From IMG/VR virus record IMGVR_UViG_2541047816_000002: a stretch of DNA of 38,841 bases; one strand, written 5' to 3'. The notes under the pieces were generated by a model, which was given only the letters and a program-made list of their open reading frames with translations, was not told the origin of the DNA and did not search any database. Of the stretch, positions 1 to 28,410 are shown piece by piece; the stretch's first letter is position 1; each line of letters starts with the position of its first letter. The position numbers were made by a program, and so were the translations under genes. This DNA is from a virus (Duplodnaviria; Heunggongvirae; Uroviricota; Caudoviricetes).

Positions 1-1131
1 TCAAATGACCAGTTTTTTCCATTCCTTACCGCGTGCGTCGTTGTAAATATCGGTCATTTTTTGATTCGAATGGCCTAGCAAAATTTTGGTATCAACCCCC
101 TGCTCTCTGAACAATCGCTCTGATAAAGATCTCTGCTCATGGAAAGAGGGTGGGGTGCCATTAGCACGCCAGTTGTAATCCACAGAATCCCGGGCTTTTT
201 TAAATGCAACGGTTAATGTTGCTGGCTTAACCATCCCGCCGCGCTTAGCTGTCCCTTTCGCGTGATGGTGGTGCAATAGCCACGGACTAAGAACGCAATC
301 GCGGCAGGATGACACCACATCATCCAGGGTGAGATTTAATTTATCGCAACGCAGAGCCAGAGGGATGGCAATCCGGGTTCCTGTTTTTTGCTGTTCGACA
401 TGAAGATAACCATCCCGGATATCCGAAAATTGCATTTTGCAAATATCTGAAAGGCGCTGGCCTGTCATCAGTGCCAGCAGCATACCGCGCTGTAAAAAGT
501 AACCATCCTTTTCCGCTGCGTTATAAATCATCATCCACTCATCAAAAGTCAGTCGCTGTCTTGATATCCGCACCTGCGGTTTTTTTGCCGATTCTGCAGG
601 GTTAAAGCCTGGCGGGACATCGCCCGTTTGCTGAGCTTCCCGGAAAACATCGATCAGTACTTTCCTGAAAATTTGTCCCATTCTGTTATGTCCTCTGGCC
701 TTGTACTCTTCCAGTACTGATACCACATCTTTTACGGTTATGGCATCTAACGGTCTGGTGCCAAAACGTTCATCAAATACCCTGAGAGGGGCCGCTTTCT
801 GTTTCAGCGTGTTGAGTTTGATCTCGCCGTTTTCATATCTTTCCTGTTGAATTTTTCTGTAATTATTCAGAAAAATGGTAACGGTTGATGAACCGCCGGT
901 ATCACTAATAATTTTCTCCTGCAGACTGAGCATTTGTTCCATTTGCTGCCGGGCAAGACGGCTGTTCGCTTCTGCTGCAATAGTTTCTGCCAGTTTCTGG
1001 TCAATACTGCCGAGACCGTGATTTTTGCCTGTTATGGGATGCCTGTAACGCCAGTAAACTTTGTTATTTCTTTTGTCAAAATACGGAGATAATCCCGGAA
1101 CATCGGTTTTATATTTTCGCGGGCGCGCCAT
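1..1131 (-). CDS. int: Phage tyrosine integrase (site-specific recombinase)
   Basis: 376-aa ORF; C-terminal ...LLGHSNQKMTDIYNDARG... typical of lambda-family tyrosine recombinases; overlaps a downstream excisionase-like gene; stop codon is at nt 1-3 so attL lies outside the window. Confidence 0.88.
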   Translation of the reverse strand: MARPRKYKTDVPGLSPYFDKRNNKVYWRYRHPITGKNHGLGSIDQKLAETIAAEANSRLARQQMEQMLSLQEKIISDTGGSSTVTIFLNNYRKIQQERYENGEIKLNTLKQKAAPLRVFDERFGTRPLDAITVKDVVSVLEEYKARGHNRMGQIFRKVLIDVFREAQQTGDVPPGFNPAESAKKPQVRISRQRLTFDEWMMIYNAAEKDGYFLQRGMLLALMTGQRLSDICKMQFSDIRDGYLHVEQQKTGTRIAIPLALRCDKLNLTLDDVVSSCRDCVLSPWLLHHHHAKGTAKRGGMVKPATLTVAFKKARDSVDYNWRANGTPPSFHEQRSLSERLFREQGVDTKILLGHSNQKMTDIYNDARGKEWKKLVI

Positions 1132-1357
1132 CTTCCAGTATCCTCTTCAAAGCAGGGTGATCTGTGGCGATCACCTCCGGCTTGTTTACCATTCCGACAA
1201 AGCGAGCTTGCGGATCCACTCGCCAGCGTCTTCCAACTTTTTTGGGGAGAGGAAATATCATTCCGGCTTTAGCGTATTTACTTAACGTACTCGGAGTAGG
1301 GACCGGTTCACTGAATTCCTCTTTTGCCCACTCAGTGAGCAGAATAAGTCTTGCCAT
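1109..1357 (-). CDS. xis: Excisionase-like small DNA-binding protein
   Basis: 82-aa ORF immediately upstream of int, overlapping its start by 23 nt; basic small protein in the canonical xis position. Confidence 0.7.
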   Translation of the reverse strand: MARLILLTEWAKEEFSEPVPTPSTLSKYAKAGMIFPLPKKVGRRWRVDPQARFVGMVNKPEVIATDHPALKRILEDGAPAKI

Positions 1358-1421: not shown

Positions 1422-3893
1422 TTAAAAATCAGCCTGATTCGGGATCAGTTTTTGCCAGATAACTGAAACGTATTTTGCCTGGTAACGGGCGTCATCAAGT
1501 GCATTATGGCGCTCACCTTCGAATGGAATAGCCGTTCTGGCATCGAAGTCTATGGCTTTCCCCAGCTCAACGATTGTGCGTACATCGCGATCGTTGTAGT
1601 AACGCCATGGGCAGGGGATCCCCTGCCGTTCGTATGAACGGCGCAAAATCGTGTTGTCGAAGTTGGCTCCATTTCCCCAGACCTGAACAAAAAATTCGCC
1701 GGAGTTTTCGTCGATAAATTCCCGCAATTGCAGCAGTGCATCATCTAACGGGATTTCATCGGTCAGAATGGCAGATTGCGCCTCCCGTGATTGCTTAAGC
1801 CACCATTTAATGGTGCCACGATCAATGACTCCGCCAGCAGTATCCATATCGATGGTCTTACTAAATTCCGGCCCCATATCTCCGGTTTGCGGATCGAAAA
1901 ATATTGCACCTATTGAGATAAGCGGGGCATCGGGATTTTTTCCCATGGTTTCAAGGTTGATCATCATGTGGTGCCACATTCTGCTGGTGGATGTGATAAC
2001 GTGATGACCGTTCATCGCAATTAAGGGATCTGCCGTCTCGCCAGTTTCACTATCGCTGGCGTGATCCTGAGCGCTACCAGCATTCTCCTTGTGTGGATGT
2101 TCAGCGCCTTCCATTTCCTTCGGATCATTTTCCTGAACTTCAACCTGATTCTCTTCATCGAATGTTTCCTGGTATGTTGCGTCGCCCATTACCGCGCCAC
2201 AATCAGGGCAGTTGCCACCACCGCTTTGACCGCAGGCGGTGCAGACTTTTTCCGGTTCCTGTTGCGCTACTGGCTCAGGTTGTTTCGTTTCTGGCTCGTT
2301 TTGTAACGCATTTGGGCTGTTTTGTTCCGCTTTCTGGCCGTTCTGTTCCGTTTCTTGTTGGTTCTGATTCACTGAATCGCGGGTTTCAATCCCCTTCACC
2401 CATTTCGGATCATTCGGGTCGCTAATCCCTGCAACAAATTCACCACGTGATACAGCAAGCAACTTATTGGCGTCAGGCTGGCTGATATTGGCTGCCTGCA
2501 TAATTTTGTTTACTTCGTCAGCGGTAACTTTTACCGGCTCTGGTTGTGCGATCGTGTCAGATGCACCAGTATTTTGTTGTGAACCTGAGTATGTACTGTT
2601 TTTGCGGGCGAAATATTCTTCTTTCGTGATTTCAGTAGCCCCAGCAGACAGCGCCTTATCCAGACCAGAAAGTTTGTTTGCGCGACCGTATTTTTCGCCA
2701 TCCTTGTCGGTGAAGAGGAAGTAGAACGGCCCCTCACGTTCTACAGATGGTTCGACTTCCACTTTGCATTCGGTTTTTTCGTTGTCCGGAATTGCCGTTT
2801 CCACTGCATCAGTTTCTGGTACTGGCGACGAGAGAGTATCAGTTGCGCTCTGATTTGTTCCTTCATCTTCAAACACGCCCTTTGTAGTCAGGTATTCAGT
2901 AATGTATTTGTTCAGTGCCACAGGGTCTTTGTGAATGTCGATCGGACGTTCACGGACAAGGCCAAAAATAGTCTGGCGGTCGTAGCGAAGGGCATCAGGC
3001 TGTTTGCGCATTGATGCCGAGATACGCTTCCAGTCTTCGCGGTCGTTGTCGATAACTTCATTTTTTGCCCAGCGATGGATGCTGCCGTCAATGTTTCCGG
3101 CATCCACATCACCAGGCCAGAGAGCGTAGGCCAGTTCGTCATCCAGTGTTTTCCATGTCTGCTTGTATTCGCGATGAATGGCAGCAATGACCGGGTTGAT
3201 TTTTCCTGTTGAATTTTCAGTGTGCTGTTGATTGGCTCTGGCGCGGGCGAGATCAACAACAGACGTGTATTTTCCGGCTTCCTTGCGTTCACCTTCGCGA
3301 CGTTTTTTCCAGATGCGCATCTCTGCCTGAATTTCGGGCCATTTGGCACCAGGCTTACATTTATGCTTAACCCACCCGATGGCATGCAGCTTAAGCTCCG
3401 GATACATGGCGTTAACTTCTGGCATTTTCATCAACGCTTCAACGATATGTCCGTCGAATGTTGCCATGTCTTCCTGCAACAATTCCTGTGCGCTAATAAC
3501 CATATCAACGGTGATGTTTTCACATGTGTCGAACTTAACCATGACAGCGTTCTGTACTTCAGGGGCCAGCTTGTCAAAAGTGACGTTCATCGGATCGGAT
3601 TCAGTCTCAACCGGGACAAAGGAAGCAGACTCCTCATCCCAGCGGTTTTCCTGCATATATTCAGCATCCCAGGAATCGAGGGCAGGGCGGGGTATACCGG
3701 GTTTATCCTCGCAGACAAGAAATTTATAAGCGCAGTCCTGAGCAGCCGGATAATGCTCCAGGAATTGCCAGTGAAATTTTGCGCGGGCGCGACGTTCATC
3801 ACCGGCTTCAATGGCAGTGGCTACAGCGACGGCACCTTCTTCCTTTATTGCCTGTTCGTCCGGAATGGCGGCGCAAATAAAGACTTTACTCAT
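1422..3893 (-). CDS. Large early-operon protein with C-terminal DnaQ-like (DEDDh) 3'-5' exonuclease-like domain
   Basis: 823-aa ORF; RBS GAGGT 9 nt upstream of ATG at 3893; C-terminal ...ERHNALDDARYQAKY... resembles the DnaQ Exo III motif (H-x-A-L-x-D-A); internal CxxC...CxxC (CTACGQSGGGNCPDCG); acidic/Gln-rich linker. Confidence 0.6.
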   Translation of the reverse strand: MSKVFICAAIPDEQAIKEEGAVAVATAIEAGDERRARAKFHWQFLEHYPAAQDCAYKFLVCEDKPGIPRPALDSWDAEYMQENRWDEESASFVPVETESDPMNVTFDKLAPEVQNAVMVKFDTCENITVDMVISAQELLQEDMATFDGHIVEALMKMPEVNAMYPELKLHAIGWVKHKCKPGAKWPEIQAEMRIWKKRREGERKEAGKYTSVVDLARARANQQHTENSTGKINPVIAAIHREYKQTWKTLDDELAYALWPGDVDAGNIDGSIHRWAKNEVIDNDREDWKRISASMRKQPDALRYDRQTIFGLVRERPIDIHKDPVALNKYITEYLTTKGVFEDEGTNQSATDTLSSPVPETDAVETAIPDNEKTECKVEVEPSVEREGPFYFLFTDKDGEKYGRANKLSGLDKALSAGATEITKEEYFARKNSTYSGSQQNTGASDTIAQPEPVKVTADEVNKIMQAANISQPDANKLLAVSRGEFVAGISDPNDPKWVKGIETRDSVNQNQQETEQNGQKAEQNSPNALQNEPETKQPEPVAQQEPEKVCTACGQSGGGNCPDCGAVMGDATYQETFDEENQVEVQENDPKEMEGAEHPHKENAGSAQDHASDSETGETADPLIAMNGHHVITSTSRMWHHMMINLETMGKNPDAPLISIGAIFFDPQTGDMGPEFSKTIDMDTAGGVIDRGTIKWWLKQSREAQSAILTDEIPLDDALLQLREFIDENSGEFFVQVWGNGANFDNTILRRSYERQGIPCPWRYYNDRDVRTIVELGKAIDFDARTAIPFEGERHNALDDARYQAKYVSVIWQKLIPNQADF

Positions 3894-3985: not shown

Positions 3986-4177
3986 TTAAAGACCTGCCGG
4001 GATTTCGTTATTGTCCATGTGAATAACTTTATCGACCGGATAACAGTTGCCGGGAATTTTCTGTTCCGCTGCGGCAGCCATGCATTCTTTCATTGAGTTG
4101 TACATGCCGGTGATTGCATCAAGCGACTCACCAGTATTGAGATGTACAGTCAGAATGAGTACGAATAATGTGTTCAT
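3986..4177 (-). CDS. Small protein with N-terminal hydrophobic (signal/TM-like) segment
   Basis: ATG at 4177 preceded by GGAGAG; MNTLFVLILTVHL... hydrophobic N-terminus; start overlaps stop of upstream ORF (ATGA). Confidence 0.5.
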   Translation of the reverse strand: MNTLFVLILTVHLNTGESLDAITGMYNSMKECMAAAAEQKIPGNCYPVDKVIHMDNNEIPAGL

Positions 4178-4362
4178 CGCCACTCTCCGAAAATACCGAG
4201 TTTAAGAAGGGCAATTCTGGAGAGTATGGAATTGTCATTCAGCAGGTAGGGTTCATATTTTCTCATTTTGATTGCATCCTCGGTGAAATCCCTGTTACTG
4301 AGCAGAACACCAATATTAAAGCACCCGTCAGACGTATTAACGTTTGGTAGTGACGTTTCCAT
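4174..4362 (-). CDS. Hypothetical small protein
   Basis: 62-aa ORF; GAGGA RBS 8 nt upstream of ATG at 4362; lies 10 nt downstream of the Rha-like gene stop. Confidence 0.5.
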   Translation of the reverse strand: METSLPNVNTSDGCFNIGVLLSNRDFTEDAIKMRKYEPYLLNDNSILSRIALLKLGIFGEWR

Positions 4363-4372
4363 TATCGCGTCC

Positions 4373-4930
4373 TCAACTATGAATTTTTAGCAATTGCTCC
4401 ACAGTCATATTTTTAATTGCGCTCCGGTTTACAAGAGTCCATCCTTGTTTCTCCAGATAAAACCGGAAGGTATCCAGGGTGCAGACCATTGCGCCGTCAG
4501 GAACGGTTTCAGTGAATTTGATATTGCCGTGTTCGTCGAGACGGATAACCAGGGTGCGTCCGTCCCCGTGAATCATTTTGTCGGGAGACGGGGCGTTATT
4601 CTGGCGCAGTTCAGCTTCCATGCGGTCGAACTCAGCAATGTATGCCTCTTTAAATGCAGCGGCTTTTTTGCCAGTGAAGCCCATCACCAGGAAAACGAAG
4701 CCGTTTTTGGTGATTTGGTACATTGGGAGTTTGCGCCCGGTTGAGTCGGTGTATTCGCTCGACACAAAATTGTGCTCAGTGAATTTTGCTGAACAGTCCA
4801 GATTGCGAATTTTATCCAACACTCGTTCGTGGCGTTTGCCAAAGAACTCGGCGATCGCAACAGACGTAGTGACAGCGCGACCATTTTCGATGGTTACGTC
4901 AGGGTGAGAAAGGGTAAGGATAGTAGCCAT
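4373..4930 (-). CDS. Phage regulatory protein, Rha family
   Basis: Start chosen at internal ATG (4930) with GGAGG 8 nt upstream; the longer track ORF (to 5227) would run through an intrinsic terminator; contains ...KLPMYQITKNGFVFLVMGFTGKKAAAFKEAYIAEF... Rha-like core. Confidence 0.72.
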   Translation of the reverse strand: MATILTLSHPDVTIENGRAVTTSVAIAEFFGKRHERVLDKIRNLDCSAKFTEHNFVSSEYTDSTGRKLPMYQITKNGFVFLVMGFTGKKAAAFKEAYIAEFDRMEAELRQNNAPSPDKMIHGDGRTLVIRLDEHGNIKFTETVPDGAMVCTLDTFRFYLEKQGWTLVNRSAIKNMTVEQLLKIHS

Positions 4931-5099
4931 GATGGCAGCCTCCGCGATGAATTTGATTAACTCACCACCGAGGTTTTCCACGACCATAAGGGTGGTGAGA
5001 CGTACAGGGGTGGAAATACCGGTCATCACGGAACCCGGCCAGCCTTGCGGCTGCCCTGCACGCCCCACCATAATGCGAATGTGGCTGTGCTTAACGCAT

Positions 5100-5122
5100 A
5101 AAAAAACCGCCTGAGCGCGGTT
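5100..5122 (-). terminator. Rho-independent terminator for leftward transcription
   Basis: Minus-strand hairpin AACCGC-loop-GCGGTT followed by a T7 run (an A run on the plus strand). Confidence 0.6.
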
Positions 5123-5799
5123 ATGCGCCGTGAATGATTTCGGGTTTCCACGCCCGGCACCCGTTTTATGAGGTGCAGGTGCACTATAATTCCACCCGTT
5201 CTGGTTTTCAATAGCTACATTCAACATTTTCTCTCACCTTTTCAGCGGAGTGAACTTTGTGATGCAGTGCCTGGTGCCTCCAGGTGACGTTAACCAGTTA
5301 ACAATTAACGCCGGATACAGAGAATCCACCCATAACACTGTTTTTGGTTTTAACTGTTCCGCGTGCGCTGAGCCGCATTCACCGCATCACAAAATTCACT
5401 TTAAAAAGGGCGGCAGAGCAGTCACGGAGTAAAACTGATACCGCCAAACGTCACCAGAAAATTGATAACAGAGGGCGTTGCAGCGGGGTTGTCACTTAAG
5501 CGTATGGTCAACCTGACAACCCGGTGTCCTCAACGGGGGAAGGAATAACCCCGCCATACTTACCGCCGCGCCATTTCGCGGATTGCCACAACCGGAAGCG
5601 CACGGTCGACGAAAATTTAACGACAGGCTATCTATGAACCAGCTACCTCGCCGTGCGCTTTCGCGTTATGGTCTGACTTTTCAGGGAAATATCCTTTCAG
5701 TAAACTGTCAGTGCCGGATTCTTATCCGTGTCCGGCGCACGACCACACGCTGTCACGAGAGGTCTCCATTCTCAACCAGTAACCTCAATGGAGGATAAA

Positions 5800-11085: not shown

Positions 11086-11772
11086 ATGACCCCAATAAAA
11101 ATATTTATGACTATTGCTGATTTCAAACGGCCTAAATTGGAGCTCCCAAACGGGGCAAACAAACTACTACTGCACTCTTGCTGTGCTCCATGTTCCGGTG
11201 AAGTGATGGAGGCGCTTCAGGCCTCGGGAATCGACTACACCATCTTTTTCTACAACCCGAACATTCATCCTCAGAAAGAGTATTTAATTCGTAAGGATGA
11301 AAATATTCGCTTTGCTGAACAACACGGCGTGCCGTTTATCGATGCTGATTACGACACCGACAACTGGTTTGAACGTGCCAAAGGAATGGAATGGGAGCCT
11401 GAGAGGGGGATCCGTTGTACCATGTGTTTTGACATGCGTTTTGAGCGGACAGCGTTGTACGCTGCTGAAAATGGTTTCAGTGTGATCAGCAGTTCACTGG
11501 GCATTTCACGCTGGAAAAATATGCAGCAGGTTAACGAGTGTGGGCGGCGAGCTGTTGCGCATTATCCGGGTATGGTGTACTGGGATTATAACTGGCGCAA
11601 GCAGGGCGGCTCGTCCCGTATGATTGAAATCAGCAAGCGCGAAAAATTCTATCAGCAGGAATATTGTGGCTGTGTGTATTCTCTGCGCGATACCAATCTA
11701 CACCGCAAATCTCAGGGACGCCCTCTTATCAAAATTGGCCAACTCCACTACGGAAAAGAAGAGAAGGAGTGA
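11086..11772 (+). CDS. DUF208 / QueH-like protein (epoxyqueuosine reductase family)
   Basis: 228 aa with ...[11 protein letters not shown]... Cys cluster characteristic of QueH/DUF208, plus further conserved Cys (CTMCF, CGC). Confidence 0.6.
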
Positions 11773-12009
11773 TTTTATGGATCACCTTTCTGATTGATTT
11801 CATATTGGCGAGGTGACGTGAGTTAAGTAGAATGGCTGCGGGTGCTTGAGGCTATCTGTCTCAGGCATGAACACTGAAAGGCAGATAGAGAAAAGCCCCA
11901 GTTAACATTTCGCGTCCTGCAAGACGCTTAACATTAATCTGAGGCCCAATCTATGTCTCACAAATGTAGGTTAGCCTCTTACGTGCCGAAAGGCAAGGGG
12001 AAGCAGGCT

Positions 12010-12165
12010 ATGAAGCAGCAAAAGGCGATGTTAATCGCCCTGATCGTCATCTGTTTAACCGTCATAGTGACGGCACTGGTAACGAGGAAAGACCTCTGCG
12101 AGGTACGAATCCGAACCGGCCAGACGGAGGTCGCTGTCTTCACAGCTTACGAACCTGAGGAGTAA
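12010..12165 (+). CDS. hok: Hok/Gef-family type I toxin (small membrane peptide)
   Basis: MKQQKAMLIALIVICLTVIVTALVTRKDLCEVRIRTGQTEVAVFTAYEPEE matches recalled HokD/RelF; intrinsic terminator follows. Confidence 0.85.
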   Translation: MKQQKAMLIALIVICLTVIVTALVTRKDLCEVRIRTGQTEVAVFTAYEPEE

Positions 12166-12260: not shown

Positions 12261-12381
12261 ATTTTCAACGCATTTGAAGTTCTGGACGGTGCCGGAATAG
12301 AATCAAAAATACTTAAGTAGCGCGCAGGGATAAGAGGGATGGTCCCTTAAAGGGGAGAGCTAATTATCCGGAAGGATTCTG

Positions 12382-12633
12382 ATGATGAACATCGAAGAAC
12401 TGCGTAAAATTTTTTGTGAAGATGGCCTCTATGCTGTGTGCGTTGAAAATGGAAATATTGTTAGTCATTACCGCATTGTGTGTTTGCAAAAAAATGGGGC
12501 TGCGTTAATTAATTTTGTGGATGCCCGAGTGACGGACGGATTTATCTTGCGCGACGGTGAGTTTGTCACTTCATTACAGGTATTGAAAGAGATCGGAATA
12601 AAAGCTGGCTTTTCTGCTTTTTCAGAAGAATAA
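12382..12633 (+). CDS. Rem-like small prophage protein
   Basis: 83 aa MMNIEELRKIFCEDGLYAV...; resembles recalled Qin-prophage Rem; GGAAGG RBS. Confidence 0.55.
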   Translation: MMNIEELRKIFCEDGLYAVCVENGNIVSHYRIVCLQKNGAALINFVDARVTDGFILRDGEFVTSLQVLKEIGIKAGFSAFSEE

Positions 12634-12699
12634 ACTCATCTACAATCTTGCGCGGGGCTGAACTCCCGCTGAGTAACACCGTGCCACCGGAGAAAACCG

Positions 12700-12978
12700 A
12701 TGGCACGCAACGCAAAATATTACAAACATGATAATTCGACCGTTCTTGCCCACACGCACGAGCGGTATTCTCACGCATTTAAGTCAGACTGGTACCAGCA
12801 TCCCCCATGCACTGAAGAACAGGCCGAATGGCTAATTCATAACTACCGCAGACGCGGATACGAGATTAAGAAAGCCCTCAGCCTCGATTATCGTCACTGG
12901 ATAATCTCCGTCAGGCTTCCTTACTCCGAACGCCCACCGCGTCTGTCCCGCACATTCCAGCAACGCATCTGGAGGTAA
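12700..12978 (+). CDS. Hypothetical protein (92 aa)
   Basis: GGAG RBS; ORF ends 2 nt before next gene. Confidence 0.5.
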   Translation: MARNAKYYKHDNSTVLAHTHERYSHAFKSDWYQHPPCTEEQAEWLIHNYRRRGYEIKKALSLDYRHWIISVRLPYSERPPRLSRTFQQRIWR

Positions 12979-15808: not shown

Positions 15809-16856
15809 ATGCTTAATACTGTAAAAATATCCAGTTGTGAGTTAATCAACGCCGACTGCCTGGAATTTATCCGGTCGTTACCCGAAAATTCTGTTGACCT
15901 GATAGTCACGGACCCGCCGTACTTTAAAGTGAAGCCTGAGGGCTGGGATAACCAGTGGAAGGGCGACGATGATTACCTGAAGTGGCTGGACCAGTGTCTG
16001 GCGCAGTTCTGGCGGGTGCTGAAACCTGCCGGAAGTCTTTACCTGTTCTGTGGTCATCGCCTGGCATCTGATATCGAAATCATGATGCGTGAACGCTTCA
16101 GTGTGCTGAACCATATTATCTGGGCGAAGCCGTCCGGACGCTGGAACGGATGCAACAAGGAAAGCCTGCGGGCGTATTTCCCCGCCACAGAGCGCATTCT
16201 GTTCGCGGAACATTATCAGGGGCCGTATCGTCCGAAAGATGCCGGGTATGCGGTGAAGGGCAGTGCACTGAAACAGCATGTGATGGCCCCGCTGATTTCT
16301 TACTTTCGTGATGCGCGCGGCCCTGGGGATAACGGCAAAACAGATTGCAGATGCCACAGGAAAGAAAAACATGGTGTCGCACTGGTTCAGTGCCAGTCAG
16401 TGGCAGCTACCGAACGAAAGCGATTATCTGAAATTACAGTCGCTGTTTGCCCGGGTGGCAGAAGAGAAACATCAGCGCGGTGAACTGGAAAAGCCCCACC
16501 ACCAGCTGGTGGATACGTATACGTCACTGAACCGGCAGTATGTGGAGCTGCAGAGTGAATATAAGCATCTGCGGCGGTATTTTGGTGTGACGGCGCAGGT
16601 GCCGTACACGGATGTGTGGACACATAAACCGGTGCAGTTCTATCCCGGGAAACATCCGTGCGAAAAACCGGCAGAAATGCTGCAGCAGATAATCAGCGCA
16701 AGTAGCCGTCCTGGTGATCTGGTTGCGGATTTTTTCATGGGGTCGGGTTCAACGGTAAAAGCGGCGATGGCACTGGGGCGTCGTGCGATTGGTGTTGAGC
16801 TGGAGACCGGACGTTTTGAGCAGACAGTCAGGGAAGTTCAGGATTTAATCGTTTGA
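15809..16856 (+). pseudogene. DNA methyltransferase (beta-class N6A/N4C, DPPY motif), frameshifted
   Basis: Two overlapping ORFs in different frames: 15809-16483 carries motif IV DLIVTDPPYF, 16308-16856 carries motif I FFMGSGST; frame switch near 16300-16330. Confidence 0.6.
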
Positions 16857-25755: not shown

Positions 25756-27255
25756 GTGACGCTCAATACTTCTCAGGTCAGTTACTATATGACTCAGCGT
25801 AAGAAAGGTATAACTCAGCATATCTCGGCCATGAAGGCTGGTATCTCAGTCCGTTCTGGTCGTCGGATCGAAAAAGGAGAGTGGGCAAAAAACAGTGTTC
25901 GGCACTGGCGCACACGCAAAGATCCTCTGGAAGCTGTGTGGGACAGCATGCTTGTTCCTCTGTTGAAAGAGAGGCCGGCTCTGACACCAACAACTCTGCT
26001 GGAGATGCTACAGGATAAATATCCCGGCCAGTACCCCAACAGCCTTCGAAGAACAATGCAACGGCGGGTCTGCGAATGGAAGCTACAGTATGGTGCAGAG
26101 CAGGAGGTCATGTTCCGCCAGCGACATCAGCCCGGTCTGCGAGGTCTGTCGGACTTTACTGAACTGAAAGGTGTAGTTGTCACCATCGCCGGTAAGTTGT
26201 TGGCGCATAAGTTGTATCACTTCCGTCTGGAATGGAGCCACTGGAGCTGGATGCGGGTTGTGCTGGGTGGTGAGAGCTTCTCTGCTCTGGCTGAAGGTCT
26301 GCAGGAAGCCCTCGGACAACTGGGCGGAGTGCCGGTAGAACATAAAACGGACAGCCTGAGGGCAGCATGGAAACAACAGGGCGAAGATGGACGCCGCGAG
26401 CTGACTGAGCGTTATGCTGCTCTCTGTCAGCACTACGGAATGCAGGGCGTACACAATAATGCCGGTCGGGGCCACGAAAATGGCTCGGTTGAAAGTGCCC
26501 ACGGACATCTGAAAAGGCGTATCTGTCAGGCGCTGATACTGCGGGGCAGTAACGACTTCAGCACCATAGAAGAATATCAGGCCTTCATCACTCAGCAGGT
26601 TATGCGGCACAACCGTAACAATCAGGATCTGGTCAAGGAAGAACGTCTTCATCTGAAACCGCTGCCGCTTCGTCGCAGTGCTGACTATGATGAGCTGACT
26701 GTGAGGGTTAGCCGCAGCAGTACCATCAATGTGAAGCACGTCGTCTACAGCGTACCTTCCCGGCTTGTAGGTCAACTGTTACGGGTCCGGTTATGGGACG
26801 ATCGTCTGAGCTGTTACGTTGGCAGCAGCGAGGTCATGAGCTGCCCACGTGTCAGACCAGAAAAAGGGAAGACGCGGGCCCGTCGTATCGACTTCCGACA
26901 TGTGATCGACAGTCTGGCAAAAAAGCCCGGTGCGTTCTGCCATGCAACGCTGAGAAATGACATCCTGCCAGACGATGAATGGCGGAGGCTGTGGCGTCGC
27001 TTATGTAATCATCTGGAACCCGACATGGCAGGCAGGCTGATGGTACATGCTCTGAAACTGGCTGCAGGATACGACGATATCTCAGTCGTGGCAAAAGGTA
27101 TGGAGCAGATGCTGAATACCCCGGGAAACGTGGATCTGCACCGGCTGATGCGCTTCCTGGGTATAAAGGAAAAGGCGTTGCCGGTAGTCAATGTGAAACA
27201 GCATAACCTGAGCAGTTATGAGCAACTACTGCGTGGCAAGGGAGGTTCGCAGTGA
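25756..27255 (+). CDS. istA: IS21-family transposase IstA
   Basis: 499 aa; GTG start with AGGA RBS; overlaps istB by 4 nt. Confidence 0.85.
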   Translation: MTLNTSQVSYYMTQRKKGITQHISAMKAGISVRSGRRIEKGEWAKNSVRHWRTRKDPLEAVWDSMLVPLLKERPALTPTTLLEMLQDKYPGQYPNSLRRTMQRRVCEWKLQYGAEQEVMFRQRHQPGLRGLSDFTELKGVVVTIAGKLLAHKLYHFRLEWSHWSWMRVVLGGESFSALAEGLQEALGQLGGVPVEHKTDSLRAAWKQQGEDGRRELTERYAALCQHYGMQGVHNNAGRGHENGSVESAHGHLKRRICQALILRGSNDFSTIEEYQAFITQQVMRHNRNNQDLVKEERLHLKPLPLRRSADYDELTVRVSRSSTINVKHVVYSVPSRLVGQLLRVRLWDDRLSCYVGSSEVMSCPRVRPEKGKTRARRIDFRHVIDSLAKKPGAFCHATLRNDILPDDEWRRLWRRLCNHLEPDMAGRLMVHALKLAAGYDDISVVAKGMEQMLNTPGNVDLHRLMRFLGIKEKALPVVNVKQHNLSSYEQLLRGKGGSQ

Positions 27256-28007
27256 GCAATATCCATCACCTTGAACGCAGCCTGCGTAAACTACGCCTGA
27301 CACGAGTTGGAGCTGAATGGCACGCTCTGGAAAAACGAGCACTGGCAGAAGGCTGGACACCATCGCGCTATCTTCTGACGCTATGCAATGAAGAACTCCT
27401 GTGGCGCGAGAGTGAAAAACTGCGTCGTTATAAAAAGGAGGCCCGGTTGCCAGTTGCCAAAACGCTAAGCGAATACGACTTCAGTCAGGTGCCGGAACTG
27501 AATGGAGCTCAGTTCCGGCAACTCTGTGAAACGACAGACTGGGTTGATGCAGGAGAAAACGTTCTGCTGTTCGGAGCCAGCGGGTTGGGGAAAAGCCATC
27601 TGGCGGCAGCGATCGTGGATGGCGTAGTAGGCCAGGGCTACCGGGCCCGGTTCTACAGCGCAGGAGAGTTGTTGCAGGAACTACGTAAAGCCAGAGCGCA
27701 GTTGAAACTGAATGAGCTGCTACTGAAACTGGATCGCTACCGGGTGATAGTGGTGGATGATCTTGGCTATGTCAAACGCGACAGCGCCGAAACGGGAGTA
27801 CTGTTCGAGTTAATAGCGCATCGCTATGAACGTGGGAGCCTGGTGATAACCAGTAACCATCCGTTCAGCATGTGGGGCAGCATCTTCGTGGATGAGACTA
27901 TGGCGGTGGCGGCGGCAGACCGGCTGATCCATCACGGATATATGTTCGAACTGAAAGGTGAAAGCTACAGGAAAAAGACAGCGAAGGCAGTAACAAGCGC
28001 GACTTGA
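27252..28007 (+). CDS. istB: IS21-family helper ATPase IstB
   Basis: 251 aa; Walker A GASGLGKSHLAAA, Walker B VIVVDDLGY. Confidence 0.9.
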   Translation: MSNIHHLERSLRKLRLTRVGAEWHALEKRALAEGWTPSRYLLTLCNEELLWRESEKLRRYKKEARLPVAKTLSEYDFSQVPELNGAQFRQLCETTDWVDAGENVLLFGASGLGKSHLAAAIVDGVVGQGYRARFYSAGELLQELRKARAQLKLNELLLKLDRYRVIVVDDLGYVKRDSAETGVLFELIAHRYERGSLVITSNHPFSMWGSIFVDETMAVAAADRLIHHGYMFELKGESYRKKTAKAVTSAT

Positions 28008-28072
28008 TGTCGCACTGAAGGGTGCGGCCAGTATAGTTGGCGCGAGTCGGCAAAACTAGTTGACGTCTAATA

Positions 28073-28410
28073 CCGATCCCACGCCTGTGGATGAAGCCAC
28101 GTCGTATGCCATCCGTTTTCCTGATGATCCGGAGATTTTTTCGCAGACAGAGGCGCAGCAACTGGTCGCGGAAGAGCTTGTGGAGAAGTGGGAAAAAGGA
28201 AAGATGCGTCTGCTGTGGGATAACAAAAAGCGGCGTAACGAAGCGCTGGACTGCCTGGTGTATGCCTACGCGGCATTACGTGTGTCCGTGCAACGCTGGC
28301 AGCTTGATCTGGCTGTACTGGCAAAATCCCGGGAAGAAGAGACGACCCGGCCAACCCTTAAAGAACTGGCAGCGAAGCTGTCCGGAGGAGTGAATGGTTA
28401 CAGTCGCTGA
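28073..28410 (+). pseudogene. A: Terminase large subunit gene A, C-terminal fragment
   Basis: ...FPDDPEIFSQTEAQQLVAEELVEKWEKGKMRLLWDNKKRRNEALDCLVYAYAALRVSVQRWQLDL... matches recalled lambda gpA C-terminus. Confidence 0.82.

What the first reader, a model, noticed from the sequence alone, without database searches (positions are those of the whole stretch)
1422..2010. Large early protein with an atypical DnaQ-like exonuclease C-terminus
The 823-aa protein ends with a domain containing a clear Exo III-like HNALDDA motif. By eye I could not find a canonical Exo I D-x-E; the nearest candidates are INLETMG and FFDPQTGD. Upstream there is a CxxC...CxxC zinc-ribbon-like motif and a long acidic/Gln-rich linker. 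No RecT/Bet-like annealase is encoded nearby, so this is not an obvious RecET-type pair. It could be an exonuclease, or a catalytically altered nucleic-acid-binding protein.
Basis: partly seen in the sequence, partly recalled or inferred. Interest (0 to 1): 0.45.

Follow-up and report, generated by a model that had tools for sequence, protein, structure and literature searches.

The report
Prophage DnaQ-like exonuclease, active-site variant
This is a very common E. coli prophage gene (the intact form of K-12's ydfE pseudogene) that joins a RecE-like front end to a 3'-5' exonuclease domain, and its 'missing' catalytic motif is a rare single-base change (Asp646 to Asn) that probably disables the enzyme in this strain.

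Summary
An 823-aa ORF (1422..3893, minus strand) ends in a DnaQ-like domain with HNALDDA, and this sequence has no D-x-E. The domain is an ordinary member of Pfam PF16473 (Rv2179c-like, E 1.7e-64). Its AlphaFold model matches T4 DexA, RNase T and oligoribonuclease.

INLETMG is the Exo I motif with its first Asp replaced by Asn (N646, codon AAC). The other four DEDDh residues are present: E648, D746, H796 and D801. The substitution belongs to this allele, not to the family. Of 235 family representatives, 233 have Asp at that position and none has Asn. The exact AAC 63-mer occurs in 30 of 5426 complete E. coli genomes, and the GAC version in 334. One Asp-allele gene differs from this exonuclease domain by that one base only.

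The gene family is in about 65% of E. coli genomes and is annotated "exonuclease" or "3'-5' exonuclease". Residues 474-624 are 74% identical to Rac RecE. The RecE nuclease domain and recT are replaced by the DEDDh domain. No annealase is encoded, and the prophage is Chi-rich.

Verdict: a known protein carrying a rare, probably inactivating SNP. Low interest.

The parts
1422..3893 (-). Complete CDS, 823 aa. It is 100% identical to RefSeq WP_021535863.1 'exonuclease' and is the intact counterpart of the K-12 Qin pseudogene ydfE.
   Evidence: ORF list; 100% matches in 7 genomes; annotation; full-length PHROG 2082 'exonuclease' match 1-823/823; ydfE 97% identical over aa 1-256.
1455..1970 (-). DEDDh 3'-5' exonuclease domain, aa 642-813 (Pfam PF16473, Rv2179c-like / T4 DexA-like).
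   Evidence: Pfam E 1.7e-64; phmmer hit to DexA 8KEL, E 1.3e-6; AF2 model pLDDT 83.6; Foldseek top hits DexA E 5e-12, then RNase T, Orn and REXO2.
1941..1961 (-). Exo I motif I-N-L-E-T-M-G. N646 (codon AAC, window 1956-1958) replaces the near-invariant catalytic Asp; E648 is retained.
   Evidence: Coordinates; aligns to DexA IDFETMG; the column is Asp in 233/235 representatives, with 0 Asn; all 29 aligned homologues have Asp.
1650..1664 (-). Exo II motif N-F-D-N-T with catalytic D746.
   Evidence: Asp in 255 of 262 occupied positions.
1488..1508 (-). Exo III motif H-N-A-L-D-D-A with H796 and D801 (H-x4-D, the 'h' subtype).
   Evidence: His in 250/250 and Asp in 248/250 occupied positions.
2022..2474 (-). 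RecE-homologous central segment, aa 474-624. It holds the GEFVxGISDPNDPKW motif, a Q/E-rich low-complexity stretch, the 4-Cys knuckle and the acidic linker. Homology to RecE ends where the nuclease domain begins.
   Evidence: 74% identity to Rac-SA53 RecE aa 471-614; 84% nucleotide identity (H50); NCBIfam PRK09709 partial match to aa 246-626.
2196..2243 (-). CTACGQSGGGNCPDCG, a C-x2-C-x7-C-x2-C knuckle (aa 551-566). It is shared with RecE but absent from the Klebsiella/Enterobacter homologues.
   Evidence: alignment A1.
2859..3176 (-). Confidently predicted all-helical domain, aa ~240-345. It is conserved in distant long homologues and weakly in RecE. Its function is unknown.
   Evidence: BLAST to diverse representatives; AF2 blocks with pLDDT 85-96; no significant PDB fold match.
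1109..1357 (-). Excisionase, immediately downstream of the exonuclease gene (context).
   Evidence: Pfam Exc; annotation.
1..1131 (-). Lambda-type integrase; the prophage sits next to ompW (context).
   Evidence: Pfam; annotation.
3986..4362 (-). ydfD-like DUF1482 gene and dicB, immediately upstream in the same orientation. This is the Qin-type early-left gene order (context).
   Evidence: Pfam DUF1482; annotation.

Best explanation
The gene is the standard early-left-operon 'exonuclease' of Qin/PPompW-type lambdoid prophages. It is a modular protein. A RecE-type N-terminal and central scaffold is tethered by a disordered acidic linker to a DEDDh 3'-5' exonuclease domain of the Rv2179c/T4 DexA family. 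The scaffold comprises a variable N-terminus, a helical domain at aa ~240-345, the GEFVxGISDPNDPKW motif and a 4-Cys knuckle. In normal family members the domain should remove nucleotides from 3' ends by two-metal-ion catalysis, using D646, E648, D746, H796 and D801. In this window one G-to-A transition has changed the first metal-ligand Asp to Asn (D646N). By analogy with Exo I mutants of other DEDDh enzymes, the protein should still fold and bind nucleic acid but be catalytically dead or severely impaired. The allele is a rare, young polymorphism, most simply a neutral or nearly neutral loss-of-function change in a prophage accessory gene. Shown here: fold and family, motif mapping, rarity and single-base origin of N646, RecE homology, and absence of an annealase. 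Inferred: loss of activity, the substrate, and the biological role.
For: Family and fold. Residue mapping: N646 aligns with the Asp of DexA's IDFET. PMC12153337 equates the DexA active site with epsilon D12/E14/D103/H162/D167. Conservation: the Exo I column is Asp in 233/235 representatives at 90% and 50% clustering, and the other four catalytic columns are conserved and present here. Population: the exact 63-mer with AAC is in 30/5426 genomes, against 334 for the same 63-mer with GAC, and the gene family is in 3534 genomes at 80% coverage or more. Origin: the Asp allele of strain EC931 differs from the window across aa 631-823 by 1 nt, the codon itself, so there is no compensating change. Precedent: TREX1 D18N, which I take from textbook knowledge to be the same Exo I position, is described as catalytically inactive while keeping its structure (PMC8047136; PMC9089306). 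Decay context: this copy of the prophage has an IS21 element in its terminase gene. One other N-allele gene carries an IS insertion (H8). About 5% of the 90%-cluster representatives have some catalytic-residue substitution. Architecture.
Against: There is no biochemistry for this protein or for any close homologue that I could tie to it. Asn can still ligate a metal through its carbonyl oxygen, so residual or Mn-dependent activity is possible. All 10 N-allele genes I fetched are intact ORFs of 823-824 aa. They sit in prophages at three attachment sites (ompW, tRNA-Ser/mtfA, potC). Within their exonuclease domains I counted 5 synonymous against 2 non-synonymous differences. That is not what fast decay predicts, although recombination with Asp alleles could produce the same pattern.
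Confidence: 0.8

Rival explanations
1. The N646 protein is still a working 3'-5' exonuclease. Asn646 would substitute adequately for Asp, perhaps with Mn2+ or with altered substrate preference, so the allele is functionally silent.
For: The ORF is intact in 10/10 N-allele copies and has spread to three att sites. The other four catalytic residues are intact. Synonymous changes outnumber non-synonymous ones in the N-allele clade.
Against: The position is Asp in 233/235 representatives and never Asn, which implies strong constraint. The equivalent TREX1 D18N is described as catalytically inactive.
Confidence: 0.12
2. The D646N allele is a selected, catalytically dead binder. It would trap 3' ends, or poison Asp-allele paralogues encoded by co-resident prophages by forming mixed oligomers, as TREX1 D18N does in heterodimers.
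For: DexA-family enzymes work as dimers or tetramers (PMC12153337). E. coli genomes carry a median of 2 and up to 10 matching places per genome. The allele persists intact at three att sites.
Against: The frequency is only 30/5426 genomes. The exonuclease-domain haplotype is almost identical to Asp alleles, so the allele is young. There is no compensating or accompanying change. Nothing distinguishes this from neutral drift. I did not check whether the paralogues in the same strains carry Asp.
Confidence: 0.06
3. It is a RecE-type 5'-3' recombination exonuclease, as the 'exodeoxyribonuclease VIII' label on several phage records implies, working with an annealase encoded elsewhere.
For: Residues 474-624 are 74% identical to RecE. 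NCBIfam PRK09709 matches aa 246-626. Phage records label it exonuclease VIII.
Against: The NCBIfam score is 281 bits against a cut-off of 1269, and the match stops before the nuclease domain. Homology to RecE ends at aa 624. The C-terminus is a DEDDh fold, not the RecE nuclease fold. In Rac, recT, ralR and ydaC lie between recE and xis, and all three are absent here.
Confidence: 0.01
4. The Asn codon is a sequencing or assembly error.
For: It is a single-base difference from common alleles.
Against: The identical 63-mer is present in 30 independently assembled complete genomes from several countries and hosts, in three prophage contexts.
Confidence: 0.01

Closest known systems
Pfam PF16473, Rv2179c-like 3'-5' exoribonuclease domain (DEDDh superfamily)
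   Same: Full-length HMM match (217 bits). E648, D746, H796 and D801 are at the family's conserved columns. The family is very large: 11,606 clusters at 50% identity reach E <= 0.001.
   Different: The first Exo I Asp is Asn in this allele. The domain is the C-terminus of an 823-aa RecE-like protein, not a stand-alone protein of about 170-190 aa.
Phage T4 DexA (PDB 8KEL/8KEN) and its E. coli homologue EcD ('HREX' anti-T4 exonuclease, PMC12153337)
   Same: DexA is the best sequence and fold match in the PDB. It is a DEDDh 3'-5' DNA exonuclease. The paper reports that DexA homologues are common in Escherichia and that one of them, EcD, degrades 5hmC-DNA and protects against T4.
   Different: Identity to DexA is only about 20%, and several DexA loops are missing. 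DexA W152, the 5hmC-stacking residue, aligns with a Tyr here. The catalytic set is incomplete. I could not retrieve the EcD sequence (HAK9828821.1), so its closeness to this domain is untested. This gene lies in the phage early-left operon next to xis/int.
RecE (exonuclease VIII) of the Rac prophage
   Same: [quoted passage not shown]
   Different: The RecE C-terminal 5'-3' nuclease domain is replaced by a DEDDh 3'-5' domain. There is no recT, ralR or ydaC. The score is far below the equivalog cut-off.
ydfE (b1577), pseudogene of the E. coli K-12 Qin prophage
   Same: 97% identical over aa 1-256. The neighbours are the same: dicF, dicB, ydfD, then ydfE, then int.
   Different: K-12 ydfE is cut off by IS2 after residue 256. 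The window has the intact 823-aa gene.
DnaQ-type nuclease genes near int in lambdoid phages lacking a Rec module and rich in Chi (Genome Res 2025, PMC12315714)
   Same: [quoted passage not shown] There is no annealase or anti-RecBCD module. There are 15 Chi sites in 38.8 kb against 1.7 expected.
   Different: That paper does not analyse these proteins further. Whether this prophage was in its panel is unknown, because no supplementary files were held.
Human TREX1 D18N
   Same: The same substitution (first Exo I Asp to Asn) in a DEDDh exonuclease. The enzyme is described as catalytically inactive with its structure retained. The motif equivalence (FFD18-M-E20 to MID/N-L-E) rests on textbook knowledge.
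   Different: It is a distant homologue in a eukaryotic context. It is an analogy for the effect of the mutation only.

Membership tests
DEDDh exonuclease / Pfam PF16473 (Rv2179c-like) | Profile match above the curated cut-off over the whole domain | tested here: met
   217.2 bits against a cut-off of 27; profile positions 2-177 of 177.
DEDDh exonuclease / Pfam PF16473 (Rv2179c-like) | RNase H-like alpha/beta fold shared with solved DEDDh exonucleases | tested here: met
   AF2 pLDDT 83.6. Foldseek: DexA E 5e-12, RNase T about 3e-9, then Orn and REXO2.
DEDDh exonuclease / Pfam PF16473 (Rv2179c-like) | Exo I motif D-x-E (both acidic residues) | tested here: not met
   The motif reads N646-L-E648. 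The Glu is present and the Asp is replaced. The column is Asp in 233/235 representatives.
DEDDh exonuclease / Pfam PF16473 (Rv2179c-like) | Exo II Asp | tested here: met
   D746 in NFDNT.
DEDDh exonuclease / Pfam PF16473 (Rv2179c-like) | Exo III H-x4-D | tested here: met
   H796 and D801 in HNALDDA.
DEDDh exonuclease / Pfam PF16473 (Rv2179c-like) | Metal-dependent 3'-5' exonuclease activity | not testable with these tools
   This needs a nuclease assay of N646 against an N646D revertant.
RecE / exodeoxyribonuclease VIII (NCBIfam NF007259 equivalog) | Whole-protein score at or above the curated cut-off | tested here: not met
   280.8 bits against 1269; only aa 246-626 match model positions 271-603 of 877.
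RecE / exodeoxyribonuclease VIII (NCBIfam NF007259 equivalog) | C-terminal RecE 5'-3' nuclease domain | tested here: not met
   Similarity to Rac-SA53 RecE ends at aa 624 (RecE aa 614). The C-terminus is PF16473 instead.
RecE / exodeoxyribonuclease VIII (NCBIfam NF007259 equivalog) | Adjacent annealase gene (recT) | tested here: not met
   xis follows the gene directly. No annealase is annotated in the near-identical AR_0017 prophage. Rac has recT between recE and xis.
HREX / EcD-type 5hmC-specific defence exonuclease (PMC12153337) | DexA homologue with a fully conserved catalytic set | tested here: not met
   It is a DexA homologue, but the Exo I Asp is Asn in this allele.
HREX / EcD-type 5hmC-specific defence exonuclease (PMC12153337) | Residues equivalent to DexA W152 and D169 (5hmC recognition) | tested here: inconclusive
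   The phmmer alignment puts Tyr opposite W152 and stops before D169. The invariant Trp three residues upstream could align differently.
HREX / EcD-type 5hmC-specific defence exonuclease (PMC12153337) | Protection against T4-like phages; degradation of 5hmC-DNA only | not testable with these tools
   This needs plaque and nuclease assays. The EcD sequence was not retrievable for comparison.
'No Rec module, high Chi' lambdoid phages (PMC12315714) | No annealase or anti-RecBCD module, together with abundant Chi sites | tested here: met
   15 GCTGGTGG sites against 1.7 expected, with 0 of 100 shuffles reaching 15. No annealase or Gam is annotated.

The most novel reading that the evidence does not exclude
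D646N is not decay. It would be a naturally selected, catalytically dead allele that still binds 3' ends or forms mixed oligomers with Asp-allele paralogues from co-resident prophages. It would act as a trap or a dominant-negative regulator of this very common prophage exonuclease, as TREX1 D18N does. That would explain why it stays intact and has spread to prophages at three attachment sites.
Probability: 0.06. Interest if true: 0.45.

Novelty: already known. Interest (0 to 1): 0.15.

Why it matters
It matters little on its own. The protein is identical to a RefSeq entry and belongs to a curated Pfam family. Its family occurs in about two thirds of complete E. coli genomes. Three modest points remain useful. 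First, the common label 'exodeoxyribonuclease VIII / RecE' on this gene is wrong about mechanism. It is a RecE scaffold carrying a 3'-5' DEDDh domain and has no annealase partner. Second, the function of this abundant protein is still untested. It is a reasonable candidate for the DexA-like anti-T4 exonucleases reported in 2025. Third, the N646 and D646 alleles differ by one base in the exonuclease domain, so they form a ready-made natural control pair for such experiments.

Tried and rejected
1. N-terminal 470 aa against PDB sequences: no hit.
2. Central helical domain: the AF2 model is confident for aa ~240-345 only, and Foldseek against the PDB gave nothing below E 2.5. The fold remains unassigned.
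3. PADLOC defence models: no hit.
4. I tried to find EcD (HAK9828821.1) among the cluster members of ten stand-alone E. coli homologues, and the accession was not listed. The relation of EcD to this domain is therefore open.
5. The supplementary tables of the Genome Research paper were not held.
6. A literature search for 'Rv2179c' returned nothing on the prophage protein.
7. The promoter and terminator scan around the gene found no more than chance would give, and nothing on the minus strand next to the gene.
8. My first attempt at column counting used wrong column indexing. I discarded it and replaced it.
9. A dN/dS reading within the N-allele clade has too few differences (7 nt) and is confounded by recombination, so it cannot decide between selection and drift.
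10. I considered and rejected FFDPQTGD as an Exo I candidate. It is the conserved beta-hairpin after Exo I (F55, P57 and G60 invariant).
11. A profile search of the PDB with alignment A1 hit only DexA (E 2.7e-15) and one marginal entry, 7t2s (E 0.0074). It therefore gave no residue-level alignment to TREX1 or epsilon.
Full report
**What is at the coordinates.** The minus-strand ORF 1422..3893 encodes 823 aa. The finding's span, 1422-2010, is its C-terminal ~195 residues.
- INLETMG, aa 645-651
- FFDPQTGD, aa 665-672
- NFDNT, aa 744-748
- HNALDDA, aa 796-802
- CTAC...CPDC, aa 551-565

The stretches on either side of the cysteines are strongly Gln/Asn- and acid-rich.

**Family and fold of the C-terminus.** Pfam places aa 642-813 in PF16473 (Rv2179c-like 3'-5' exoribonuclease domain). 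The score is 217 bits against a 27-bit cut-off, and the whole profile is covered.

The only PDB sequences matched are the phage T4 exonuclease DexA entries 8KEL and 8KEN. An AlphaFold2 model of aa 612-823 has mean pLDDT 83.6, and its first 25 residues are disordered. Foldseek matches it to DexA at E 5e-12. RNase T, oligoribonuclease, REXO2 and other DEDDh enzymes follow.

The family is huge. In the library of 50%-identity representatives, 11,606 clusters reach E <= 0.001.

**The catalytic residues.** I aligned 269 family sequences to the query and counted residues at each catalytic column.

| Position (fragment / protein) | Motif | Count among occupied positions | This window |
|---|---|---|---|
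| 35 / 646 | Exo I Asp | Asp 233 of 235; one Gly, one Glu, no Asn | Asn |
| 37 / 648 | Exo I Glu | Glu in all but 5 (Lys) | Glu |
| 135 / 746 | Exo II Asp | Asp 255 of 262 | Asp |
| 185 / 796 | Exo III His | His 250 of 250 | His |
| 190 / 801 | Exo III Asp | Asp 248 of 250 | Asp |

The window therefore has four of the five DEDDh residues, with Asn at the fifth. In the phmmer alignment N646 lies opposite the Asp of DexA's IDFETMG. The DexA paper equates that active site with epsilon D12/E14/D103/H162/D167 (PMC12153337). INLETMG is thus the Exo I motif. FFDPQTGD is the conserved hairpin that follows it.

**The substitution is an allele, not a family trait.** All 29 homologues in alignment A1 read D-L/I/V-E.
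- A 63-nt query centred on the AAC codon matches exactly in 30 of 5426 complete E. coli genomes.
- The same 63-mer with GAC matches exactly in 334 genomes.
- The GAC query finds 3423 genomes at 80% coverage or more.

I fetched ten N-allele and five D-allele genes. The D allele of strain EC931 differs from the window across aa 631-823 by a single nucleotide, the first base of codon 646. No compensating change accompanies it.

The N allele is not an assembly artefact. It occurs in isolates from humans, pigs, river water and waterfowl, in several countries. It sits in prophages at three attachment sites: ompW, tRNA-Ser/mtfA and potC. All ten sampled N-allele ORFs are intact. One further N-allele copy is interrupted by an IS4-like element (H8).

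Within N-allele exonuclease domains I saw two sub-haplotypes differing at 7 nt, which I counted as 5 synonymous and 2 non-synonymous. That is too little, and too confounded by recombination, to decide between drift and selection.

**Expected effect.** The first Exo I Asp is a metal ligand in the two-metal mechanism of DEDD exonucleases (textbook knowledge). The same Asp-to-Asn change in the DEDDh enzyme TREX1 (D18N) gives an enzyme described as catalytically inactive that keeps its structure (PMC8047136; PMC9089306).

I therefore infer that the window's protein is a folded but dead or severely weakened exonuclease. This is an inference, not a demonstration. Residual or Mn-dependent activity cannot be excluded.

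Substitutions at catalytic positions are not unique to this allele. About 5% of the 90%-identity cluster representatives carry one, consistent with relaxed constraint in prophages.

**The rest of the protein.**
- Residues 474-624 are 74% identical to aa 471-614 of Rac-SA53 RecE. This segment includes the GEFVxGISDPNDPKW motif, the four cysteines and the acidic linker. A weaker collinear match covers aa 262-336.
- The NCBIfam exodeoxyribonuclease VIII equivalog matches only aa 246-626, at 281 bits against a 1269-bit cut-off.
- Homology stops where RecE's nuclease domain begins.
- In Rac, recT, ralR and ydaC lie between recE and xis. Here xis follows the gene directly.

The gene is therefore a RecE scaffold in which the 5'-3' nuclease domain and its annealase partner have been exchanged for a DEDDh 3'-5' domain.

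A helical domain at aa ~240-345 is conserved in distant long homologues and is predicted with pLDDT above 85. It has no significant fold match in the PDB. The N-terminal 470 aa have no PDB sequence match.

Full-length homologues carry precomputed Pfam entries PF27430 and PF27432 alongside PF16473, so the architecture is already catalogued.

The first 256 residues are 97% identical to the K-12 Qin pseudogene ydfE, which IS2 truncates.

**Context.** The window is a lambdoid prophage next to ompW. It is 99.5-99.97% identical to the prophage of strain AR_0017 across the aligned blocks. The gene order is int, xis, exonuclease, ydfD-like, dicB, Rha, DicF and so on to the repressor. This matches Qin and the viable phages Tritos and HannyBb.

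No annealase or Gam is annotated in the near-identical AR_0017 prophage. No minus-strand ORF of 150 aa or more lies between the Rha gene and the repressor.

The window holds 15 Chi sites against 1.7 expected. This fits the class of Chi-rich lambdoid phages without a Rec module described in PMC12315714. That paper also notes sporadic DnaQ-type nuclease genes next to int.

**How known it is.** The exact protein is RefSeq WP_021535863.1, annotated 'exonuclease'. The gene matches at 80% coverage or more in 3534 of 5426 complete E. coli genomes and in 17 deposited phage records. It matches PHROG 2082 'exonuclease' end to end.

A 2025 paper reports that DexA homologues are frequent in Escherichia. 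It shows that one of them, EcD, degrades 5hmC-DNA and protects against T4 (PMC12153337). I could not obtain the EcD sequence. Whether this domain is an EcD-type enzyme is therefore open. In any case this allele lacks the complete catalytic set that the paper stresses.

**Verdict.** It is a known, abundant prophage protein, and the 'atypical' motif is a rare single-nucleotide variant that most likely inactivates it. Novelty: already known. Interest: low.

Noticed in passing
window 25663-28072: A 2.4-kb insertion, absent from the otherwise 99.9%-identical AR_0017 prophage, splits the terminase large-subunit gene (N-part 24009-25667, C-part 28060-28410). It carries an IS21-family pair: an istA-like ORF at 25756-27255 and istB at 27252-28007 (PF01695, E 1e-61). 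This copy of the prophage should be unable to package DNA.
   Followed up: partly
whole window; sites listed: There are 15 Chi sites (GCTGGTGG; 11 on the + strand, 4 on the - strand) against 1.7 expected from shuffles. Two lie at the 3' end of the exonuclease gene region (1394-1401 and 1983-1990). This matches the 'no Rec module, high Chi' lambdoid class of PMC12315714.
   Followed up: partly
window 4988-5075, 5100-5176 and 5408-5459 (all minus strand): Rfam finds C4 antisense RNA and isrK inside the 5' part of the ORF annotated as a 284-aa Rha regulator (4373-5227). That part also gives the Pfam 'Ash' match. The first ~110 codons of this ORF may therefore be an RNA-based immunity region (P1 immI-like) and not coding sequence. 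DicF sRNA lies just upstream, next to a dicB fragment.
   Followed up: no
window 16906-17155 and 17232-17909: Downstream of the Q antiterminator lie three tRNA genes (CAT anticodon, called tRNA-Ile in RefSeq; Arg-TCG; Arg-TCT). Two copies of the sRNA family STnc100 follow. A 1.85-kb DUF6645 gene (about 18132-19985) then sits where Stx phages carry toxin genes.
   Followed up: no
window 11107-11772 and 11840-12165: A QueH (epoxyqueuosine reductase) homologue is encoded in the early-right region of the prophage. A hokD/sok toxin-antitoxin locus follows it. The ~500 bp after it (12261-12755) differ from AR_0017.
   Followed up: no
window about 15809-16856: The DNA methyltransferase gene is annotated as frameshifted in the near-identical AR_0017 copy. 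The window aligns to that stretch without gaps, so it should share the frameshift.
   Followed up: no
L005, L007, L008, L012 (tRNA-Ser/mtfA site); L011 (potC site): The same N646 exonuclease allele sits next to three different integrase/excisionase modules. The integrase at the tRNA-Ser site is frameshifted in all four genomes sampled. This shows how freely this gene segment recombines among co-resident lambdoid prophages.
   Followed up: partly
L020 4079-4999 (E. coli K-12 MG1655, Qin prophage): The K-12 pseudogene ydfE is the IS2-truncated first 256 codons of this exonuclease gene. K-12 therefore lacks the DEDDh domain altogether.
   Followed up: yes
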